A stretch of 64,000 nucleotides of DNA from Euprymna scolopes (taxonomy: Eukaryota), in NCBI GenBank assembly GCA_053919585.1, contig CM132809.1; one strand, given 5' to 3'. The notes under the pieces were generated by a model. The model was not told the origin of the DNA. It was given only the letters and a program-made list of their open reading frames with translations, and did no database searches. Positions 18,816 through 62,535 of this stretch are shown one piece after another. The translations under genes were made by a program, and so were the position numbers. Position 1 is the first letter of the stretch. Each line of letters starts with the position of its first letter.

Positions 18816-19211
18816 ATACAGAATAAAAATATGACCTATTTAGATGTTATAATGTACATACAGATTCAGAAGTTAATCTAATATATTTAAATATACTCAC
18901 ATGTGTATTCATATAAAATTCATGGAGAGATAAGCAAATATGCTTTATTTTAAGGTTCATCTAAACCTCGTAGATTAGTATACGAAACACGCGTGTAAGT
19001 AAATATCCCTTGATTATGTGATGTTCTGCAATCTCTGCAGACAGTCAGTTATGAATTAAATACATGGTCAAATTTTTTAGAGCGCATTAACTGATCCTAG
19101 CTTTCTTCCCGGCGTTGCTGGTCGAAAAATACACTTAAACAGGATATTATTAATTAATGCAGATTGCATGTATATTATTATAGAACCAAGCCTGTATTGT
19201 TTATTGTATAT

Positions 19212-20734
19212 TATTTAAGCGCTGCCTTAAGGAGAAGTGCTTTCCGACCCCCTGGAAGACCTCATCAGTTTGCCCTGTATTTAAGAATTCAGGTGATAAG
19301 TCATCTCCCTCTCAGTACAGACCAATAAGTCTTCTCTGTGTTATGAGTAAGTTGCTGGAATCAATATTAAATAGAGAAATAGCCAACCACCTCAGCAGGA
19401 ATAACCTTCTTAGTGACACACAATATGGTTTCCGCTCTGCAAGATCTACCGCAGATGTGCTGACGGTTATATCCCACAGGATTAGTGAATCTCTTGACAA
19501 AGGCTTCCTTTCTAGGGCAATTGCTCTTGACATATCAAAGGCCTTCGACAAAGTATGGCATAAGGGTCTACTTCACAAGATTTCCAGCTACGGTATAACT
19601 GGAAATGTTTTCTCAATCATTAAATCATTTCTCTCCGATAGGCTCATAAGAGTAGTGGTAGATGGACAAAAATCGGAGGCCTGCAATGTAAATGCTGGAG
19701 TCCCTCAGGGATCAATACTGGGCCCAACTCTCTTCCTGATCTACGTCAATGACCTCCCTAAACACATACTTAAATCCTTCGTTGACATCTCTGCTGATGA
19801 CACGACCATCTACGGCAACACAACAAAGGCTGTAAATGACGAAGTTCTCTCGGATTCTCTCTCCTCTGATCTCGAGCGCGTGGTTCAGTGGGGGAAGATG
19901 TGGCTAGTTACCTTTAATGCATCCAAAACAAAACTCCTATCCTTACATCATCAACGCTCTGATCCCCAGCTGGCATCAATTGTGATGGATGGCTCTCGTC
20001 TGGGTGAGGCCCCGTGTTTTGACAAGCTTCTGGGTTTGCCCTTTACTCCTGATCTGAAATGGAACACGTACATCAAGTCTGTTGACAAGGTCGCTGGAAA
20101 GATGGTAGGATCCTTCTACCGCTTCAGAAGATATCTCACTACTGATGCAATTCTCTGTCTATATAAAAGCCAAGTACGGCCAAGGATGGAATACTGTTGC
20201 CATATCTGGGTAGGAGCTGCCAAAACAGCCTATCATGCCTTGACAGAGTACAAAATAGACTTCGTGGTTTAGTGGGGGATGCCCTTTTCTCTACCCTGCA
20301 ACCTCTCTCCCACAAAAGAGACGTTGCGAGCCTATCCTTGTTTTATCGTTATTTTCATGGCAGGTGCTCGTCTTAACTCCAATCCCGGCCCCCCCCTCGC
20401 CAATCTTTCACGAAAAACACCCGTCTAGCTGAATCCACTGTGAAAAATTTTCCCCACTCTATATCTGTGCCTAAATCAAAACGCGGATTTCATGAGCAAA
20501 GCTTCTTTCTTAGAACTGCACGCCTGTGGAACTCTGTTCCGTCTGCCTGCTTCCCTCCGGACTACAACTTGGATGTCTTCAAGTCTAATGCTAACAAATT
20601 CCCAATGAACTGCCCCCCCTAATTAAACACTTCATAAAATCTCCTCACTACCGTAATGTACTTGCAATAACCCTTATCCCTGAGTGGCTTCCGGGCCTTG
20701 ATAAGTGGTGATCACTGTGTAAAAAAAAAAAAAA
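19212..20734 (+). mobile_element. CR1-group LINE (family A), 5'-truncated copy with poly(A) tail
   Basis: Closely matches 3199-4686; 309 aa RT ORF at 19343-20272 with YADD mutated to SADD; A14 tail at 20721-20734. Confidence 0.95.
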
Positions 20735-21070: not shown

Positions 21071-22242
21071 ATCTGAAAGTGAATATACTTCTTTTGGGAA
21101 GAAAAAGATTCACTGAAATTTTATTATTTTCTTTTCGATTTTTATCCATAAAAGAGAATGAATATTTATTTCGATTCTCGATATTTATCTGGGGAATTAC
21201 TGAACAAACGTAGCTAAGAACACTAACAGACATTAATGGCCTTTGTGTGGAATTTACACAGTATATGCTAAGCCGTTTCAGAACTTATTAGGAAGGAATT
21301 TTCTCTCAGTCATTTTATATAATAGTAGACGTTAAAGGTCCAAAAAGAAATGGAGCATAGTTTGTTTCCATACTTACACATTAGATAAAATAAAGATTAT
21401 ATCAAAATGCATATACAGCCTGATGAAAAGTGAAATGGCGAAATCAAGAGGCGATAAAGAATGAGGATCAGTTCATTGTTGTAATTAGAAAATCCACAAT
21501 CAAATTTGGGATAACGCACCTATGAATAGTGTTCATATATGTTTTAGTTCAGCATTGATATTTATTAAGTACAACTAAAATAATAATACATAGGAAATGT
21601 ATCATGAACAATGGATCAAAAAGTTCCATGAAAAATCATTTCAATATCCTAAAACGATATTTACAATATTTCAATTTCTAGCATTTGCAGGGACATTTTT
21701 GGTCCTTTCTCTATTTGAAAGTTAGATTTTATTCTAAAATATTAAGACCTGCAAAATCCCGATTATATCCAAAAAGTAAGTTCATTTGATTCGTAATGTG
21801 ATTATTTTGAAAAATAAATTGATAAACGAAGTTAAATAAAATTACAAAACAAATCAGACCTTCAATTTTTCTATTTTTGTCCATACGCCACATCGATATT
21901 ATAGCACGTTCTCTTTCATTGCTATCACCTCCTCATACTCTTCTCTATATATTCCCCAGCAATGTTTCAGGCAAACTACCTTTATCTATTATTAAAATAA
22001 AAATGAAATATAAAATCAAGAGTCCAATTACGTAAGTTTATATATTTTTGCAACGGTTTTGTTCTGCTGAGTAGCTAATCTCAGTTTTTCATGCATTGGT
22101 AATAAATAAATATGTATAGACGGACAATATACCACATAGTAGAAAATAAGGAATTTACACGTTTAGAGAAAACAGCTGAATAAAAAAAAATACTGCTGAA
22201 TTCAAAATAAGAAGGATATATGCCGCAGGTTCAATTCTGGCC

Positions 22243-23606
22243 CATCTCAACAAAAATAACCTTCTTAGTGACACTCGATATGGTTTTCGTTCTGCTAGAT
22301 CTACAGCAGATGTGCTTACAGTTATATCTCATAGGATTAGCAAATCTCTCAACAGAGGCAACCTTTCTAGGGCAATTGCTCTTGACATACCTAAGGCTTT
22401 TGATAGGGTATGGCATAAAGGTTTACTTCATAAGATCTCTAGCTATAGTAAAGCTGGAAATGTATTCTCAATTATTAAATCATTTCTTTCTGATAGGTTC
22501 ATAAGAGTAATAGTTGAGGGGCAAAAATCAGAAGCTCACAGTATTAATACCGGTGCCCCTCAGGGGTCCATCCTGGGCCCAACTCTTTTCCTGATCTACA
22601 TTAATGATCTTCCAAATAACATCCTTACATCATTTGTAGACATTTATGCTGACGACACTACCATTTATGGTAGCATATCTAAGACAGTAAACGACCAAGT
22701 TCTCTCTGATTCTCTCTCCTCTGATCTTGAGCACGTAGTACAATGGGGGAAAGGAGTACCTGGTTACTTTTAATGCATCTAAAACCAAGCTTCTCTCTTT
22801 ACATCATCAACATTCTGATCCACATCTGGCATCAACTGAAATGAATGGCTCTCGTCTTCAGGAGGTCTCAAGTTTTGACAAGCTTCTGGGCTTGACCTTT
22901 ACTCCTGATCTTAAATGGAACACGTACATCAAATCTGTTGCCAAGGCCGCTGGAAAAATGGTGGTATCTTTTCATCGATCCGGTAAATATCTCACTGCTG
23001 ATGCTATTCTCTATCTATATAAGAGCCAGGTACGTCCAAGGATGGCATATTTTGCCACATCTGGGCAGGAGCTGCTAGAAAGGACTTGACTTGCCTTGAT
23101 AGAGTTCAAAATAGACTTCGTAGTCTCGTTGGAGATGTCCTTTTCTCTTCCTTGCAACCTCTATCTCACAGAAGAGATGTTGCGAGTTTGTCTCTGATGT
23201 ATCGTTATTTTCATGGAAAGTGTTCAACTGAGCTTCAATCTATGGTCCCCCCTCGCCAAACTTTCACAAGAAACACTCGTCTAGCTGTAAACACTATCAA
23301 TAATTCCCCCCACTCTTTATCTGTGCCTAAGCGTAAACGTAGATTCCATGAACAAAGCTTCTTTCTTAGAACTGCACGCCTGTGGAATTGTCTTCCGTTT
23401 TCTTGCTTTCCGGCTGACTACAATATGCTTGTGTTCAAGTCTAACGTAAATAAGTTCTTCATGAGCCGTTCTATATAAGTTATCTAATTTACCAAATTTT
23501 CATTACTAATGATTACTATATTGTCTAATTTCTGCTGTACACTCTTTAACCCTTATCTCTTGGCCTTGATGCGTGGTGATGCGTGGTGATGCGTATGTAA
23601 AAAAAA
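22243..23606 (+). mobile_element. CR1-group LINE (family A-related subfamily), 5'-truncated, short poly(A)
   Basis: KAFDRVWH, GAPQGSILGP, YADD, FFLRTARLWN; 3' end (GATGCGTGGT)n then A8. Confidence 0.93.
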
Positions 23607-24061
23607 TGACAACCCCTGGGAGAACATTACAGTATATAGTATGATTTAATAAGCATAATACCTGTATATCTACTCTCATTTTACTATACAATATGCTGTA
23701 AACTATTCTTAACTTATAGATAACCAACAAGTACACGAACAATGATTTTACAAAAATAATTTGTAACTTCATTTTAAAGACTTTGAAAACTATTAGACAT
23801 TATTTGATATTATTTATATAAGTGTTCTCAATGATATACGAACTTGTTTAATTACTGTAGACAAACGTGCGGAATTCGGAGCGTCATTCGAACCGTTAAT
23901 ACCTTCATGACGAATATAAGTAGCAATTTATACAGTTATTTAGAAGAAATATGTTTTGCACTTACAACCATTAATGAGCTAACAATAAACTTTCATATAC
24001 ACGGTATAATTACGTTTACACACCGGTTTCCCTAAGATCACCGGATTTAGCGACGTTGAGT

Positions 24062-24455
24062 CTGGTCAATATGACAATACTGGTCAATATGATAATACTG
24101 GTCAATATGACAATACTGGTCAATATGACAATACTGGTCAATATGACAATACTGGTCAATATGATAATACTGGTCAATATGACAATACTGGTCAATATGA
24201 CAATACTGGTCAATATGATAATACTGGTCAATATGATAATACTGGTCAATATGACAATACTGGTCAATATGACAATACTGGTCAATATGATAATACTGGT
24301 CAATATGATAATACTGGTCAATATGACAATACTGGTCAATATGACAATACTGGTCAATATGATAATACTGGTCAATATGACAATACTGGTCAATATGACA
24401 ATACTGGTCAATATGACAATACTGGTCAATATGATAATACTGGTCAATATGATAA
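24062..24455. repeat. 18 bp minisatellite CTGGTCAATATGA(C/T)AATA, ~22 copies
   Basis: Directly visible; units differ only at one C/T site. Confidence 0.97.
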
Positions 24456-25430
24456 TGGTAGGTGCTGCATGGGCTTGGTGTCTGGAGAGTGATGGGCTTC
24501 GTTAGGCTATTCTTGCCCAAGACACGCTGCACGAAATACTGCAGTCCCTATTCGATCACGGAGGAATAAGGAACACGTCACTTTAATATTTCCTTTAAAT
24601 AAACACATTTTTATATCCTAAAACATAATCAATCATAGCCTGGTATAATCGATTCTTTATTTTCAATAAAATCGTAATTACCATAAAATCGTAAATAATG
24701 CTTTAATTTATATTTAAATTAGTGTTTCTTCCTGTTTTTTTTTTTTTGTTGTTCCATCTAATTTATTAATCGTTTATTATTTTGCACATGTGTTCGCGTC
24801 CCGTTATTAATGTATCATTTAAGTTTAGTAAATGAAATATTCATTTCATCTTTATGTTTATACGACCATTATATTTATATATTTTTCTATTTTTCATGTT
24901 TATTCTTTCATCAGATTGAATTCATTTACATTATCTTTCGTCGGGTCTTCATTTTCTTTTAAATATGTTTTTATTTCGTCGGGTCTTCATTTTCTTTTAA
25001 TCTAGTATATCATTTAATACAAATGCAACTCAAGTTTAGGTGTCTAAAGTTAACTACATTATAAGGAGAGGTTGAAAATAGTATTAAATTGTTACTTACG
25101 TCGTTCAACCGGACAGTTATATAACTGGGATTAGTAACGATAAAGTTTTATTTAACTTGGAAAACGTCCATTAGTAGTGTGTTCCGTAAATTGCCAGTTA
25201 TTGGAATATTTCCGATGTTTCTTTCTACATTTAAATTTTAGCATTTAACTAATCCTCCTATTTCGAGAGTTCTTATTATATTTTATGTCAAACATTTTTC
25301 TTGCTTGTAATATCTTGTTATTTACAAAAGAAATTTGAATATGCATTTTTATTTTATTTGATCAATATTTTTTTCTGAATTCCAAGTTACATTTTCTGCT
25401 TTTGTTTAACTTTTATTCTTCTATTTTACA

Positions 25431-51959: not shown

Positions 51960-54099
51960 GAAAAATTAAGACCTGGTTTCTTGTGGCCTAATACGTTTAT
52001 GCAGTCTTTATAAATAATATGAAGGATGACATTTTAAAAAAAAACATTTAACACTTTTGTGTTGGGGATAACTTTTCTATATAAATTCAACGTAAAATGA
52101 GCACCCACTTTTTGGCCACAAAGCGTTCAACCAGACATGTCATCTCTAGCATGTTTTCAAGTTTGTCAATCGAGTGGGGGTGGATGACAAATATAAACAT
52201 TTTTAGCTTATTTTTTGCGGTGGGGGCGAGAATTACATTTGAAACATAAAATAACGATAAATTTAATTAGTTTTTATGAAATTATTCTGTACTTTCACCT
52301 AACAGTTTTATAAACAGAACGAACCCCAAAATATGACAAATTCAATTTTTTTGTTGGGGGGGGGATTACATTAGAAATATAAATTGACGAAAAAGTCATT
52401 TAATTGTTTTTTTTTTAATTAATTTTTTTAGATCCTTATTTTTTTATTTTTTTCTGCGATCGCACGGGTATTAACTGCTATTTTTATTGAAACAAAAGTC
52501 GTAATGATTTATTGTTAATTACCTTTTCTTTGGGGGGGCTTTCCAGTTCTCAATGTCTTGTTTTTGTTTGATGAAAGACATGTGGGAAAGTGGACATAGA
52601 AGAAAGGGAAAGCAAAACTTCAAATATAATTCCTGTATTTAAAGTAATAGTTATTTAAATATTTCAACATATAATATTATGACCAAAATACAAGCTTCCC
52701 AATAAGGTGCACTCTGGATAGGATCAAAAATAATCCCAGTCATGAAAGATTTCTCCTCCACCGATCGAGGACAGAAAAAGTAATGTAGAACATCAAAACA
52801 GATACTACACTGGGATCTTGTTCCGAAGGGCAAAAATATGTGTGTTTAATCTTTCTTTAATTGTTTGTTCCCTAAATACATATTTGAGTTTTATCAGTAT
52901 TAAATTATATATTGCTTTAAAATTACTTAATTTTACATACATAATATTTATATTTTATATTGAATAAAGTTCGGTTTAAGTATTAATCAAAATGTTCCTT
53001 TTTTTCTTTTTAAAATTCGTTTATTGCTTTTTTTATCAAATGGCCCTCATATAGTACTGACAGTCTGACAAATCTTACCTACATTGCCTGCAGATATTTT
53101 TCAGTTAACAGCCATTCTTCTTACTCTTCCTGCCCGTGGTAAGAGTTAATCCAATATAGTTACTGTATACGTATACTATATACGTAGCGGAGATATCATC
53201 ACTAATATTCGATCCCTGAACACTAGTATATAAAAATATCCCTAAGCAATCATCTGTTCCTGTACCAAGACAAGTAAATTAAAATAATCGAGCAAGTATT
53301 TAGAGCTGATATTATTAACGAAATCTTACAAAATATTTGAAAGATCGACAGTGGCATATAAACAGACTAATATTTTCTGACTCCCACGGCAGTTTCTAAT
53401 CCTATTTTCAACTAATAACACATTGGAAAACATATCACGTTCGCTAATGCTCATTATTCTGTTGTTTGTATCGTTCTTCTCGTCTCCGCCTTTATGTCAG
53501 GATGCCAGATTATAAATCATTTATTTATTATTGCTAAAATTACAACATAAAAAGTGTGGACATTACACGTAAACAGTATCTATTGTCAATGAACTGGAAT
53601 CTAAAAATAGCATTGTTTTATCCATTTTCGGTTTACAGTTTATGTCAATTAAAGGTATTCACATCATGTAAGTCTACATTAAATAGAATTAGTCTAGCAA
53701 CACACGCAGAAATATAAAATCAAGAAGCAAGTGTAAATACAGGTGGCATCTACTAAATAAATCACAGACGTCTATGTGTGTATATAAAAATTGGAAGGAA
53801 ATCGTCAATTATTTCCTGTAGAAATGTCGTTTTCTGTGAACCGAGGTCATGTAAAATCTTAACTTTCCTCACTGTTTACACACATCGCATGGCCGAACGG
53901 TTGTTTTGTTTTGGAATTCTAAACTACCAGAGGTGTAACGTATGTGTCATCGTCGTCCCGTGGATGACATAATATTTTATTGTCTTATCTTTTGCGAGTT
54001 CGCGTCCGGCACGCGTCATTTTTAATAATACCACGATAAGTAGTTTACTCTATACTGTCTTAACACGATAACAATAACCCGCTTATTTTTTAAAACTGC

Positions 54100-54385
54100 T
54101 GTGAGGTAATCAACCTGACGGAGCAATATGCCCTCATTGGGGGGCTTCAGATCCGCCAGGGTCATGAGGAGGGCCGAATAACTATGCTAAAACTGATTTA
54201 ACACCTCCCGGGTAGCGAAATAAACCGAGGAGTTGAAATAGAGAATATAAATATATATTTTATTTCATTGTCAAAATAGATATTTTTTGGAAGTCAGACA
54301 AATATATTTTGCACTCAAAATTGATGACAGGAACTTAAAACACTAACATAACACTGTCTTGCCTTAGCGAACTCGACGGTCAGTC
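54100..54385 (+). repeat. 5' LTR
   Basis: TGTGAGGTAATCAACCTGA...CACTGTCTTGCCTTAGCGAACTCGA matches 57165-57442; exact 3' end unclear. Confidence 0.8.
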
Positions 54386-55329
54386 GTTAAGAATTTAAAA
54401 CTTCCGAGAGTTGTGTTTTTATGTATTCAGACGAGAATAATTGCAAATATAACTTGCTGAGATTTAAATAAATTTTTAAAAAATTGCTTTTGTTACCTCA
54501 GTCTGGAAAGGATTTCAATTATTAAACTGAACATCATTAGTGAGAGTTCATCCAAGAATAATTAAAAGCGTTACTTTCCGATATTAAATTGACCTTAGGG
54601 AAGAATTAAAATTCTGCCTCAGTCGGAAGGATTTCAATTTGCGAAATAAGAGTAAAAAAGCCGCATTTTAAGCGGGGATTACTTTGAATTAATTATTAAT
54701 ATCAATGAGTCAAGTGATAACTAAATTAAGTGCACTCAATTTGTGCGCAAAAAGCGATTTATATTTTTAGATGGATTTTTCCATTGCGAGTAAATCAGGT
54801 GCGTGATGTTCGCACCTGGAGATATCATTTGGAAAAAAAGGACAGAGATTCTCGTGTGATAGCGAGGCGTTGCTGAGTCTCCGTGAAGGGCGCGACCTGC
54901 GAGGTCGTTAAAGATTACGCATTTTAGTAATTAATTTTGAACAATTAGTTGGAATGAATTCCGGAACGTTTCAACTGGACTGTTGGGATAGGCAGTGATT
55001 GTGGTTGCTCAGCCCTTCGTATTACTTAGTGTGTCTGAGCAGGGCCCCCCTCGGGCACATTCTTTGAGTGAGGCGCTGGGGGCATAGTTAACATTTTATA
55101 ATTTTTATATGTGTTTGAATTATCGAACCCGGTTCGATAAATCGAGGAATCGTGTTTTCTTAAAAACGGAAGGATGGCACCTCCGACCTTCGGATCCCTG
55201 TAATAAATTAGGGAGGAAGAAGAACGGTGACGACTCAATGGAGTTCTTTTTATTGGGTGTGGTGACTGAGGACGGTCTTGATGTTAAATGCAACCGGAAC
55301 CATACGTTGCTCTTGATGTATCAGTTGGA

Positions 55330-56130
55330 CGATTGAGTCGCTGCTTGATCCATTTCTTCCTGTCGTTGTAGGAGTGAGCACGATCAAGTTATTTCTCCAC
55401 CCGTTCCATATTCACTGGACATACCCAAGTTATGCTGTTGAATCAGCGAGAGGCAGGAATATGCCGAAATTATGGTCTTGGAATGTGTCGCTCACAGAGT
55501 TCGTTGTATGTCACTGGAGATCATGAGTTGTGTATGTTGGGATTATTTCAGGAAGATAAAAGAGCGATAAATAGCGTCTGCAAGGTTGAAGTGGCAAGTA
55601 AAGGTATTTTGCCACTGCCTATAAAAGTAGCTGAAGTCATCTGGTTAATATCCACGCAACAGAAGATGGAATTGTCCAAGGTATGCGGTAACACGGCTGC
55701 TGGGATAATCAAGGTGGGACCACCTTTAACGATGGTAGAGCTACACAGGGGTTGTGAAGCCCGGGGAACGGGTATAGTGTTATCTGCGTATTATCAGGTT
55801 GAGGAACGGTATGTATTAAAAGCACTTGACGTAGAGTGGGCGAATAACCAATTGATTAACCTCACTGGCCTCTGAGACCCCTTGATCCATTGTTCATCGC
55901 CACATACCCGAATTAGGCTACCAAAAGCATAGGGAGGAGTTAGAAAAATAGATTTGAGTGAATTGCAGGCCCGATTAAACAGCCTGGAGCTTATAGAAGC
56001 TAGGGATATGCTTCATAAGATAGTGGTTACAGGAGCGGAAGTGAGCACGCTAGTAACGGTAATTGTGCTGTTGTTGGTGATTGGATGGTACGTGAAAAGA
56101 GCGAATGTAGGAAGAGAGCAGGATTATTAG
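55330..56130 (+). pseudogene. Envelope fusion glycoprotein (baculovirus F / errantivirus env-like), C-terminal half, disrupted
   Basis: Cys-spaced ectodomain ORF 55432-55875. Reading through TGA (55873) and TAG (55930) in frame gives LPKA*GGVRKIDLSELQARLNSLE (heptad-like), then TM STLVTVIVLLLVIGWYV followed by KR. Confidence 0.7.
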
Positions 56131-57164
56131 CATCTCGAGGCTGATTGTACAGATGGCGGGAGAGAGACTGGTTCGAACCCGCCGGTGATTCTGGAAAATG
56201 CGGCTACTGGTATTAACGAAAATGAGACGCAACCCGAATGCCTCCCTTATGCGGGAACCCAAAGGAACTGAAGACGACTTGAAGAACTTCTTTTCTTTTC
56301 TTTCTGTTTTACCCAAAAATCTTGCAGGACATATAAACTAAGAAACGTCGAAGAAAGATCCCAACGATACCTTGAATGGCCGTCTATTGAGGTGAGAAGA
56401 TTCCTCGGTGAAAGAAATCCTTACAAGATGCTTATGAAGGAGATTTGAATTGTGATATAAAAGTGAAGGTTCAACTATGACGGCTTAAGGTGAGAAAGGT
56501 TCCCCTAGCTTTATAAAAAAGCGGGTCCTTTGAGAACCCTGATTAAGGCTGCGTACCTTTTATTACGAGACTGTACTCTTGATAGCAGCAAGGTTAAAAA
56601 ATCTTGTAAATTGTGACTTACCCTCTATGGAAAAAACTAAAATTGAACAATGATTGAATTGATGGAAAAATGGGGAAATGGGAATAACTCTTAAAAGACC
56701 GTGGAATAAGAAAGTGGAACAGATTTTAAACAAGGGAAGTAACACTTATGAGCTAATTGATGGACTTGTTGCATTTTATTGAGTGACAATTTTTAAATGA
56801 TGATTATCTTATCGTTGAATTATTAATGTGAATTGAAAAAAAAGAATATACAAACAAGAAACAATGTTCTTGTGAAAAAAAGACATTCTATTAGCCTTGA
56901 TGAACTTTGAACTTTTACATTTTTATGATCTTAGGACTTTTATGAATTGACTTTTTTATGAACATTGGAATGAAACAGGGGGAGAAACCTGATTAAGTGT
57001 GGATATTGGATTGTATGTATGTTATCTTTTTGACAGATAATTTGATGATGGAGATAAGGGTCTGTGGAAAAATCTGACGGCGAATTGTGAAAAGAGATGG
57101 GGCGATGTATTGAGGAATAGGACTCCATGGGTTCTACGAAGCAATATAGTCTAATGGGAGCGAA

Positions 57165-57463
57165 TGTGGCGTAATCAACCTGAGGGAGCAATTTGCCCTC
57201 ATTGGAGAGTTTTAGATCCCATCAGGTGTCTGAGGAGATCTGAATAACTATGCTAAAACCGTTTTAATCAATCCCGGATGGCGAACGATAACCCGAGGAC
57301 TTGAAATAGAGAATATTAATATATATTATATTTCATTGTCAAAATAGATATTGTTTGAAAGTCAGAGAAATATATTTTGATTTAAAATTGATGGCAGGAA
57401 CATAGAACAAAACATAACACTGTCTAGCCTTAGCGAACTCGAAAGTAAGATGTCAGACTGACA
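57165..57463 (+). repeat. 3' LTR
   Basis: Begins TGTGGCGTAATCAACCTGA, ends ...CTGACA; preceded by AATGGGAGCGAA (PPT-like). Confidence 0.8.
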
Positions 57464-58559
57464 GGGATGACCTTAGGGCTCATGTGAATTTAATATATCT
57501 GTAAATTTCAGATCACAAAATTGGTGGATTACACACCCGCAAAATCTGAGGTTTTTCCAGATTCCTTGGCGTGATCTGTTTGGCTAAGAAAACTTCCAAC
57601 CCCGACCACACACCACTATTCACGTGTGTCGCGCGGAAATCGAAGCACTTTACGAACGAGTGTGTGCGCAAACGCGAAGTAAACTACTGTCCCTCTGGAG
57701 ACGTGACCGCTCCTACAAAATACCGTCTGACGCTGTCTGTAAACAGATTTGAGGCTTTTAAAATTTACTAAGAACTGACGATAATTGTAAAAAAAAACAT
57801 TGTAAATAAGTTTGTGAATTAATTCTGTAGAAGAGAATTCACGTGTCTGTTTTTCGTTCTGCCTGCGGCTTTAATATTCGCTTTCAGAATACAGGATTCA
57901 ATGTAACAACCTTCAAGAAAATAGCAGACGATCCGAGCCGAGTTCCCAGACAAAAAGGGGTCCAAGTTGAGCTTTATCAGTGTGGCGTTACACTTCTCAA
58001 CAGTCGCGGTCCTTTATTATTTTTGTGTGTTCATCTATTTTACATTGTTATGCAGAATGTTCGTGTTTCTCCCCGTATTTCAACGACCGGGTAATACCCA
58101 TCCCCTCATGCCATATAGTATTTTTTGAAAATTAAACTATATTCATGTGGCTTTTCGACCGGCAATGCTTACTCCCTTTTAACTGTCAATTTTGTTCTAC
58201 GAAGGCGCAACGCAGGGCGCCCCCCACAAGTCCAATATACATGGGAAATTAAGAAACTTACTATAAAAATGTCCACGAAATCAAAAAGTTATGTTACACA
58301 CTTTTACTGTGTGCAAGTTTCCGTATTCCCAAAGCGCAAAAAAAAAAAATTGCACTGATGTCTCAGCCGGTACCTCACAACATGTGTCACGTCATAGCTC
58401 CTATCAAAATATGTGTCTCTTTCAAGCAACCGAGTTGGTGAAAGTTCAAAAGCGTAAGATTGATGAAGAAGCGCTTTCCAACAGAGCTGTTGTCGCTACT
58501 GTGTGAAACCGTGTGTTTTCAGGATACAAGATGATTCGTTCTGATTCATGATCTTGGTG

Positions 58560-60689: not shown

Positions 60690-61712
60690 CGGTTCAAATA
60701 AAAAAAGTATTCATCAAAACAAGGCAACATCGGAATAAACAAACTTTTTCAAACGCACAAGAAATGTATAAATGTTGCGTTTTGTTAGCGATGAAATCGC
60801 TAAAAGCGTTTTTGATAATGCTTATTCCCTTGAAGCATTTCTCATGCCAAAAGTTGGCTAGATGAAAAAAAAGTTGTAGTCGGTAGGTGAGAGGGCTGGA
60901 GAGAATGGTGGATGAGGCAGTGTTTGTAGCCAAATTCATTCAACTTCTGCGGGGTCTGGTTAGCAACGTGCATTCTGAAAATTGTCATAGAGGAGAACTG
61001 TTTTTTTTTCTGTTGATCAATGCTGTTATCGAAGTTTATGATAAAGTTTATCCATTAGATGAGAGTACTTCTCCGAAGTAATGGTTTCGCCTGGATTAAA
61101 AATCAATAATAGATGGGTCGCCGACCACCAGGCAGTTAACATGATATTCGTTTGGAGCAACTGACTTCGGAAAGTATTGTGGAGCTTCGTCGAAGTCTAA
61201 TCACTAAGCTGAGCATCGTCGGAGTCTAATCACTAAGCTGAGAATCGTCGGTTATCGTAAAGTACTCACTTTTCATTGCAAGTCACAAACCGATCGAGAA
61301 AAGGCTCGTTCTTTTTGCGTAAAAGGAAAACTGTTAATTAAAACCAACTTTTGTTCGGTTGTTGCTCAATATGTGTGGCATTTATTTATCAAAGTTTTGT
61401 CTTTCCAATGTCGCTCCAAATGTTGCGAAATCGTATACGTTACATCTATATTAGAAAAATGTTCCCGACCAGTTATGCGTGGATTGGCTTGGAATAATGC
61501 TCTTAATTGATCGTTGTCAACATCGGATGCCGACCAATACGCTCATCATCTTCAAGACTCAGGTTGCATCCACGTAACTTTCTAAAATCACCCTTGGTCT
61601 GTGCATTCGGTAGCCGTTTGTGGTTAAACGCTCTGTTGATATCGCGAGCTATTTCAGCAGCGGACTACTTTGAATTGAAATAAGAAAATTGTCGGAATTT
61701 ACATTTTTTCTG
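60690..61712 (-). mobile_element. Mariner (Hsmar1/cecropia-like) transposase pseudogene
   Basis: TIFLFQFK..AAEIARDINRAF, SLEDDERIGR, DVDNDQLRALFQANPR, KNEPFLDRFVTCNEK*VLYDNRR; 29 bp internal duplication at ~61193-61251. Confidence 0.85.
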
Positions 61713-61984: not shown

Positions 61985-62535
61985 TTCGCGCTATTTAGAT
62001 GATTAACGCTGTTTGCTTGCCAAAAATATTTGTAAATAAACGGTTTGAGCATTATAAAAATAGTGGGCAAATATTTGTTTAAAATAGACATTTGTCAGTA
62101 TTTGCGGGGTCTGCTCCAGTAGGTCGATGGGTAGAACTGCCGATGGTCAACGCTATGGTTCTAGGTTCAATCCTCGGCTTGGAAGACGTGCTAGTCTACC
62201 AGGACTGTTGAGTTGTAATACAATGGAACTGTACTGTATCTCGATGACTACAAATACATTTAAGCCCCCCCTTTCAGGAGAACACTGTCGTAAATAATCT
62301 CGCCCGCTACTTAATTAGCTGAAAATGTGAGTCTTGCTGTTTGTTTGTAAATAAACGGTGAGCACTATAAAAGTAGTGGACGAATGTTTGTTTAAACAAG
62401 AAATTTGTCGAGGTTATTTGTCGACACCGCTCCCGTTAGTTGATGGCTAGAACTGCCGATTGTCAACGCGATGGTCCTAGGTCCAAACCTCGGTTTGGGA
62501 GAGGTGCTAGTCTAGCGGCACTGATGAGTTCTGAT

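What the first reader, a model, noticed from the sequence alone, without database searches (positions are those of the whole stretch)
54100..57463. Env-only LTR element: trace of an enveloped, retrovirus-like lineage
Seen: two diverged LTRs enclose ~2.8 kb with a hairpin-containing leader (CAGGTGCG/CGCACCTG at ~54797-54819; TTATCGAACC/GGTTCGATAA at ~55120-55140), no recognisable gag, protease, RT or integrase, and the C-terminal half of a membrane glycoprotein. That frame has a Cys-spaced ectodomain, a heptad-like IDLSELQARLNSLE and a TM segment followed by KR, interrupted by two single-base-type stops. Established: errantivirus env genes are homologous to baculovirus F class I fusion proteins. 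Inference: the Cys spacing and layout are F-like, so this host lineage, apparently not an insect, has had env-bearing and potentially infectious LTR elements. This copy is either an internal deletion or a non-autonomous env-carrying partner mobilised in trans. PBS and TSD could not be resolved.
Basis: partly seen in the sequence, partly recalled or inferred. Interest (0 to 1): 0.75.

Follow-up and report, generated by a model that had tools for sequence, protein, structure and literature searches.

The report
Broken envelope-bearing retrotransposon remnant
This is an old, broken copy of a retrovirus-like jumping gene that keeps two terminal repeats and the rear third of a virus-type fusion-protein gene but has no recognisable replication genes, likely lost by deletion, and envelope-bearing elements of this kind are already known across invertebrate animals.

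Summary
Mostly confirmed, but ordinary. Two same-strand LTRs (86.5% identical over 281 columns) enclose 2.8 kb with no gag or pol and one env fragment, 55417-56127, broken by two stops. The fragment has no direct Pfam hit, but its relatives carry Baculo_F (8 of 8 closest; profile match E 2e-34), so it is F-type. It covers only about residues 370-600 of 660-670. Signal peptide, furin site and fusion peptide are absent, so it could not be a fusogen.

Two corrections: the env match stops near 55415, not 55240, and the right LTR likely ends at 57535. The left LTR has no counterpart of those last 90 bp. The two stops match neutral decay at the LTR age (about 2 expected). The family is multicopy and diverged in two species.

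F-type env in non-insect LTR retrotransposons is published (Chary & Hayashi, eLife 2026), and this scan noted related elements on other DNA. Best reading: a dead, internally deleted copy. A non-autonomous env-fragment family is not excluded (about 10%), because recurrence of the junction could not be tested. Host and parent were not identified.

The parts
54100..54383 (+). Left (5') LTR, the part shared with the right LTR; begins TG; its 3' end is not resolved and it has no counterpart of the last ~90 bp of the right LTR
   Evidence: 243/281 identical to 57165-57449; 54377 onward against 57443-57535 scores no better than shuffles (319-364 of 1000 reach it)
54384..55416 (+). Non-coding internal stretch, likely what remains of the parent's 5' leader; multicopy in the host
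   Evidence: No Pfam hit in any frame; covered by many non-identical contigs in three runs, e.g. 21 contigs at 54828 and 9 at 55344 in run X1; RNA fold z -5.8 for 54376-55240
54498..54639 (+). Short direct repeat in the leader (54498-54520 and 54619-54639); 54615-54626 matches the commonest errantivirus tRNA-Ser primer site at 10 of 12 bases but lies ~230 bp from the shared LTR part
   Evidence: Repeat: 0 of 500 controls reach the score. Primer-like 12-mer: 2 matches in the window against 0.53 expected, 11 of 100 shuffles reach 2, so weak
54796..54818 (+). Hairpin with 8-bp arms and 7-nt loop
   Evidence: also paired in the fold
55120..55140 (.). Near-perfect palindrome with 10-bp arms
55417..56127 (+). 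C-terminal fragment of an F-type (class I fusion) env pseudogene: Cys-rich ectodomain part, membrane-proximal helix, transmembrane segment 56026-56082, short tail; in-frame stops at 55873 and 55930; no frameshift within the matched stretch
   Evidence: phmmer 286 hits at E<=1e-3; profile of 76 long relatives E 1.8e-43 at 55417-56103; hhalign to alignment A4 prob 99.9, E 2.2e-34, 229 columns; A4 members 8 of 8 Baculo_F
56131..57155 (+). Non-coding 3' stretch, multicopy
   Evidence: No Pfam hit; 20-37 contigs at several sites in run X1
57156..57164 (+). Purine-rich 9-mer directly before the right LTR (polypurine-tract-like)
   Evidence: Sequence; 8 of 9 purines; short, not tested against chance
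57165..57535 (+). Right (3') LTR, likely 371 bp, TG...CA with an imperfect terminal inverted repeat
   Evidence: Best match to the inverted LTR start among ~1500 positions tested ends at 57535, a score reached by ~1e-4 of window positions; summed contig depth 1777 in bin 57422-57568 falls to 156 in the next bin, 15 contigs cover 57479, and one contig joins LTR sequence to 57481 onward

Best explanation
The locus is a decayed copy of an LTR retrotransposon with a stop-broken rear fragment of an F-type envelope gene, likely a Ty3/gypsy 'ancient errantivirus' that lost gag, pol and the front of env by internal deletion and is predicted to be dead. Shown: paired LTRs, F-type homology of the fragment, absence of gag/pol and of the env signal peptide, furin site and fusion peptide, two stops, and many diverged relatives of every part in host sequencing data. 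Inferred: a full-length gag-pol-env parent inserted here during an old expansion. One or more deletions then joined the 5' leader to the middle of env near 55385-55420 and removed the 3' end of the left LTR with its primer site, and the rest has drifted neutrally. In the parent, env would have been a trimeric class I fusogen allowing particle entry into other cells, as in Drosophila gypsy. That function is known only for Drosophila elements and is untested here.
For: LTR pair at 86.5%. F-type homology: 12 of 28 hand-picked hits (of 150 listed) match Baculo_F, 11 of them above the curated cut-off; 8 of 8 closest long relatives do; hhalign E 2.2e-34; the family profile hits PDB 9w4d 'fusion protein' at E 2.2e-17 over profile 185-456, overlapping roughly the first 90 residues of the fragment. 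The fragment equals residues 371-565 of a 670-aa relative at 40% identity, and that relative and its kin carry the basic cleavage motif and fusion peptide near residues 134-153, which this copy lacks. Stops: 2 seen, 1.9-2.4 expected from 7-7.5% neutral drift. Family old and diverged: of 2913 contigs laid in run X1, 124 are at least 99% alike and 2306 under 95%. Retroelement link of this env type: P0044, a Lottia gigantea gene model with a CCHC gag-like part, a below-cut-off Integrase_p58_C match (E 0.004) and env. Literature: F-type env Ty3/gypsy elements occur in annelids, molluscs, cnidarians and others (PMC13524379).
Against: No pol is left and no parent was found, so Ty3/gypsy is inferred; the BEL/Pao element roo also has an F-like env. 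The peptide has no direct Pfam hit. Fold searches are weak: no PDB match at E<=1e-3, best VIA Z 5.8, and in the viral library six chu-like or unclassified virus glycoproteins rank above the first baculovirus F (rank 7, E 5e-4), all with TM-scores under 0.3. No clean TSD (at best 3 of 5). The matched env stretch has no frameshift although the LTR pair differs by 4-6 small indels, which could mean the LTR pair overstates the age. Whether the junction is unique was not determined, and no loose end near 55400 appears among the 24 of 1564 loose ends shown.
Confidence: 0.7

Rival explanations
1. A non-autonomous family: the deletion arose once in an active element and the short LTR-leader-env-fragment unit was then copied in trans by a full-length helper, the env fragment riding along or supplying RNA signals.
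For: Leader, env fragment, 3' stretch and LTR are all multicopy; 9-11 contigs per run cover 55344, just upstream of the env match. The leader is structured on the sense strand. RNA reads from relatives cover leader and env with the first mate mostly on the minus strand (depth 5.5-7.1 against 0-2.4 over env), which would be sense transcripts in a usual stranded library (run X10).
Against: All of this is also expected from full-length and variously deleted copies. The left LTR lacks the end seen on the right LTR and has no adjacent primer site, which a mobile unit needs. LTRs are 13.5% apart and no listed contig from another copy bridges 55340-55450 (8 of many pieces shown per run). Summed depth rises about ninefold from bin 55217-55363 to the next bin (340 to 2989 in X1), though depth is spiky everywhere and is not a copy number.
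Confidence: 0.11
2. A chimera: recombination or deletion joined the left part of one insertion (LTR plus leader) to the right part of a related one (env end, 3' stretch, LTR), so the two LTRs were never identical.
For: LTR similarity stops abruptly near 54377/57443 and the rest does not align; no clean TSD; the env stretch has no frameshift while the LTR pair shows several indels.
Against: The stop count fits the LTR-derived age; 3 of 5 bases match between the left flank and the bases after 57535; other copies also show few gaps in env (pieces); a single deletion history explains the layout equally well.
Confidence: 0.14
3. A host-kept, truncated membrane protein (exapted env) or an integrated fragment of a free virus lying between two unrelated solo LTRs.
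For: A 165-codon open frame survives (55378-55872); virus glycoproteins top the predicted-structure search.
Against: Two stops separate the ectodomain from the membrane anchor, there is no signal peptide, and the stop count is neutral; no RNA read of 265 laid is 99% or more alike to this copy (12% of one run read); the fragment sits with a purine tract and LTR in retroelement order and is multicopy; tblastn of the closest full-length relative finds nothing in the phage collection.
Confidence: 0.04

Closest known systems
'Ancient errantiviruses': F-type env Ty3/gypsy retrotransposons of non-insect metazoans (Chary & Hayashi, eLife 2026, PMC13524379; seen: abstract, section 5 part 1, section 6 part 1, section 9 part 1, section 14, passages, and parts of supplementary file 1)
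   Same: LTR-flanked, plus-strand env placed last before the 3' LTR; F-type ectodomain with conserved Cys, C-terminal helix and transmembrane anchor; many copies in the host.
   Different: Those elements are defined by intact gag, pol and env. This copy has no gag or pol, lacks signal peptide, furin site and fusion peptide, has two stops, no clear primer site, and LTRs 13.5% apart.
Baculovirus F protein family (Pfam PF12259 Baculo_F; PDB 9w4c/9w4d 'fusion protein', whose source organism the tool did not give)
   Same: Homologous through relatives: 8 of 8 closest long relatives match PF12259; family profile hits 9w4d at E 2e-17.
   Different: The fragment alone does not reach Pfam; it lies in an LTR element, not a viral genome; it is about a third of the protein.
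Drosophila gypsy/ZAM errantiviruses and the BEL/Pao element roo (F-like env; as described in PMC13524379)
   Same: Env of the same F class in an LTR retrotransposon.
   Different: Infectivity is shown only for Drosophila elements. The named relatives found here are molluscan (Lottia gigantea; Haliotis cracherodii) and distant (25-26% identity); the nearest clade of 17 proteins is unnamed.
Non-autonomous LTR derivatives (LARD/TRIM-type and internally deleted proviruses; recalled, not from a call)
   Same: LTRs around a short internal region without gag-pol; structured leader.
   Different: Those are recognised by repeated identical structure and intact primer site and purine tract; repetition was not testable here and the primer site was not found.

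Membership tests
Errantivirus, F-type env (operational definition of PMC13524379) | Flanked by LTRs | tested here: met
   281 columns at 86.5%; TG start, likely CA end at 57535
Errantivirus, F-type env (operational definition of PMC13524379) | Env homologous to glycoprotein F | tested here: met
   Transitive; no direct Pfam hit
Errantivirus, F-type env (operational definition of PMC13524379) | Uninterrupted gag, pol and env frames in one element | tested here: not met
   No gag/pol signal; env truncated with two stops. The copy is therefore filed as a deleted derivative, not as an intact member
Errantivirus, F-type env (operational definition of PMC13524379) | Pol classed as Ty3/gypsy | not testable with these tools
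   No pol in the element, no host genome, no parent locus found; only a distant relative shows gag- and integrase-like neighbours (P0044)
Errantivirus, F-type env (operational definition of PMC13524379) | tRNA primer-binding site next to the 5' LTR | tested here: inconclusive
   First TGG is ~120 bp past the shared LTR part; a 10/12 match to the tRNA-Ser site lies at 54615-54626, near chance for the window; many intact elements in the paper's table also list 'none'
Functional class I F fusogen | Signal peptide, furin cleavage site and fusion peptide | tested here: not met
   Profile positions 1-362 have no significant match in the window; relatives have these parts
Functional class I F fusogen | Fold matches a solved F protein | tested here: inconclusive
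   Model pLDDT 78.8, pTM 0.59; no PDB match at E<=1e-3, VIA best Z 5.8; baculovirus F at rank 7 of the viral library with TM 0.24
Non-autonomous LTR family mobilised in trans | Same internal structure in independent insertions | not testable with these tools
   Only short contigs and reads; no listed piece from another copy spans 55340-55450
Non-autonomous LTR family mobilised in trans | Complete cis signals (both LTR ends, primer site, purine tract) and a target-site duplication | tested here: inconclusive
   Purine tract and right end present; left LTR 3' end and primer site not found; TSD 3 of 5 at best
BEL/Pao element with F-like env (roo type) | BEL/Pao-type gag-pol | not testable with these tools
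   No gag-pol left in this copy

The most novel reading that the evidence does not exclude
A short non-autonomous retroelement family in an invertebrate that dropped gag, pol and the fusogenic half of env but kept leader, env stalk and anchor, and spread in trans on a full-length errantivirus helper: a parasite of an enveloped retrotransposon outside Drosophila, whose copies are still transcribed.
Probability: 0.1. Interest if true: 0.5.

Novelty: new member of a known kind. Interest (0 to 1): 0.2.

Why it matters
It matters little. It adds one more host, with a related second species, to the published spread of F-type env LTR retrotransposons, and its env belongs to an unnamed, well-supported clade on a long branch. 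It also shows that decayed env families exist that surveys of intact elements would miss; PMC13524379 kept only intact gag-pol-env copies. The host species label has bulk and single-cell RNA runs, so if an intact parent exists its expression could be checked cheaply. It would matter more only if the junction recurs, which would give a non-autonomous satellite of an enveloped retrotransposon.

Tried and rejected
Direct annotation of the peptide failed. Pfam gave 0 hits, the word-indexed search for longer relatives gave 0 of 1679 candidates, and the ESM Atlas gave only unrelated low-recognition clusters. Rfam found nothing in 53500-58000.

No parent locus was found. There is no host genome; alignment A2 was too divergent to scan with; metagenome scans with A3 and A4 and a viral scan with A4 confirmed 0 of 126, 138 and 44 pattern matches; the phage collection gave no match.

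Extending env upstream of 55417 failed. Short patches looked env-like by eye: 55385-55411, 55178-55216, 55127-55153, 55247-55279 and 54821-54856. The best reached only 8 of 300, 5 of 100 and 3 of 60 controls, and hhalign gave E 0.07. The anchored extension scored 0. A forced collinear alignment from 55178 beat all but 0-3 of 200 controls, but its start was chosen after the fact and the middle 200 nt scored at random level (135-163 of 200), against 84-95 bits just downstream. So this is rejected as unproven, and with it the 55240 junction.

Homology between the leader and the sequence after 57443 (one shared 11-mer) is not significant, 65 of 500. A third leader repeat unit at 54380 is not significant either, 131 of 500. 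A retro-copy of a spliced env message was considered and rejected because it would keep the env start.

The host lineage was not determined: the LINE relatives were almost all unnamed. No RNA holder was listed by the run index. No fold match of note in PDB.

Literature searches for env-only or non-autonomous env derivatives gave nothing on point, judged from listings only: 0 papers; 308 papers, none of the 20 listed holds 'env-only'; 0; 20 papers, 15 listed. Searches found nothing relevant. The main text of PMC13524379 has no 'non-autonomous' or 'solo'.

Full report
Observation. Two same-strand repeats begin at 54100 and 57165. They align over 281 columns with 243 identities, 19 transitions, 19 transversions and 7 gap columns (K2P 0.15), and no other copy lies in the window. 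Between them the only frame over 130 codons is 55378-55872. It continues past stops at 55873 and 55930 through a helix, a hydrophobic segment (56026-56082) and KR to 56127. Nine read-through frames of the rest of the interior gave no Pfam hit. The two hairpins exist; two such centres in 1 kb have P 0.04, and 54376-55240 folds better than 20 of 20 shuffles.

What the peptide is. It has no direct Pfam hit. Read with X at the stops, it finds 286 proteins at E 0.001 or better among 1.84 billion representatives, 61 of them at 1e-10 or better. Many are 620-700 residues long and match over roughly residues 360-600. Of 28 hits that I picked from the 150 listed, 12 match Baculo_F and 11 pass the curated cut-off. 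The closest full-length relative, P0152 (670 aa), aligns at 40% over residues 371-565. It and seven kin all match Baculo_F, and their profile aligns to the peptide with probability 99.9 over 229 columns. Nine positions are conserved in 90% or more of 109 aligned sequences, plus one Leu, including six of the peptide's seven Cys. The family profile hits PDB 9w4d and 9w4c, 'fusion protein', at E 2e-17 and 2e-15. In a quick tree of 108 rows (two short rows dropped; the careful search was unfinished) the peptide lies on a long branch within a clade of 18 with SH-aLRT 98. The only named relatives among 30 proteins looked up are from Lottia gigantea and Haliotis cracherodii, besides two called 'hypothetical protein'. 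The Lottia gene model joins a CCHC gag-like part, a weak integrase C-terminal match and this env. The predicted structure (pLDDT 78.8) has a helix-strand region, a beta-sandwich at about 76-141 and a long C-terminal helix. Fold searches were weak: nothing in PDB, and virus glycoproteins including baculovirus F at E 4e-6 to 8e-4 with TM under 0.3, chu-like and unclassified ones first. The F-type call therefore rests on sequence profiles.

What is missing. A profile of 76 long relatives matches only 55417-56103, at positions 363-590 of 657. Relatives carry a signal peptide, a basic cleavage motif, the fusion peptide and the first heptad region upstream; this copy has no significant match to them. 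Several short upstream patches looked env-like, one of them (55178-55216) at nearly the collinear distance. None passed controls convincingly, and the 200 nt next to the match score at random level. The break is best placed at 55385-55420, not at 55240.

Ends of the element. The best match to the inverted LTR start ends at 57535 with CA, a score reached by about 1 in 10,000 window positions. In run X1 the summed contig depth is 1777 in bin 57422-57568 and 156 in the next, and one contig joins LTR sequence to 57481 onward. The right LTR is thus likely 371 bp. The left LTR has no significant counterpart of 57443-57535, no primer site directly follows it, and the target-site match is 3 of 5 at best. 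A purine-rich 9-mer precedes the right LTR. A 10-of-12 match to the tRNA-Ser primer site, the commonest in the errantivirus table of PMC13524379 (416 elements), lies at 54615, but this is near chance.

Family and age. Seven runs in three studies and two species labels hold part of the element. Four runs laid at 80% likeness show relatives over its whole length. In X1, 124, 483, 1079 and 1227 of 2913 contigs fall in the 99+, 95-99, 90-95 and under-90 bands; X7, from organism B, gives 1173 contigs. Depth is spiky and is not a copy number. In the poly(A) run X10 (12% read), 265 reads were laid, none at 99% or more and 15 at 95-99%, and 81% run on into unlike sequence. Over env the first mates lie mostly on the minus strand, which would be sense transcripts of relatives. 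If each LTR drifted 7-7.5% since insertion, 1.9-2.4 stops are expected in the 229 matched codons, and 2 are seen. No listed piece from another copy bridges the junction, and only a small share of pieces and loose ends was shown, so recurrence is open.

Mechanism. Most likely (0.7) a full-length gag-pol-env element inserted in an old expansion, lost most of its interior and the end of its left LTR by deletion, and has decayed since. The parent's env would have been a class I fusogen. This copy cannot make one, since entry signal, cleavage site and fusion peptide are gone and stops cut off the anchor. Rivals are a chimera of two related insertions (0.14), a non-autonomous family copied in trans (0.11), and an exapted or free-virus fragment (0.04).

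Comparison with what is known. Chary & Hayashi (PMC13524379; I saw the abstract, parts of sections 5, 6 and 9, section 14, passages and parts of supplementary file 1) report 1512 intact env-bearing Ty3/gypsy elements across most metazoan phyla, with F-type env in annelids, gastropods and anthozoans among others, and argue for a Precambrian origin. They surveyed intact elements only, and four searches found no paper on env-only derivatives, judged from listings. Two earlier notes of this scan describe env-bearing elements of the same published class in other genomes; they did not change my reading. This copy works like a remnant of such an element but fails the intact-member test, and its Ty3/gypsy status and host group are inferred or undetermined.

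Verdict. A real feature, correctly recognised as an F-type env remnant between LTRs, but an ordinary dead copy of a known kind. Interest 0.2.

Noticed in passing
window 51073-51959: Nested long inverted repeats (arms of 157, 84 and 42 nt, 82-86% complementary) form a ~890-bp foldback or MITE-like element; part of one arm recurs at 52073-52119.
   Followed up: no
window 2115-4356, 19184-20269, 22180-23475: Three decayed copies of one non-LTR retrotransposon family: RVT_1 matches at E 2e-30, 2e-34 and 3e-23 and an Exo_endo_phos_2 match at 2115-2531.
   Followed up: partly
window 31834-32442 (-): A 203-codon frame ending in a YIG-like motif, reminiscent of a Penelope GIY-YIG endonuclease region (recalled); no Pfam hit.
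   Followed up: partly
window ~24040-24470: An 18-bp minisatellite open in several frames (six-residue repeat translations).
   Followed up: no
window 62046-62535 and 61182-61251: A ~315-bp tandem duplication (79-84% alike) followed by an AT microsatellite, and a 29-bp tandem repeat of 2.4 copies.
   Followed up: no
window ~53800-53840 and 57716-58000: Separate high-copy repeats flank the element on both sides, with their own loose ends and RNA reads.
   Followed up: no
window 55343-55371: A pyrimidine-rich run ending in TAG, like a splice acceptor, lies just upstream of the env match; not tested against chance, and no RNA joint was listed there.
   Followed up: no
window 54100-54383 vs 57165-57449: The LTR pair differs by equal numbers of transitions and transversions (19 and 19), less transition-biased than the changes among other copies; unexplained.
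   Followed up: no
protein P0044 (Lottia gigantea XP_009046077.1): An annotated 'hypothetical protein' is a gene model that fuses gag-like, integrase C-terminal and F-type env pieces, i.e. an unrecognised env-bearing retrotransposon; neither Lottia nor Haliotis occurs in supplementary file 1 of PMC13524379.
   Followed up: partly
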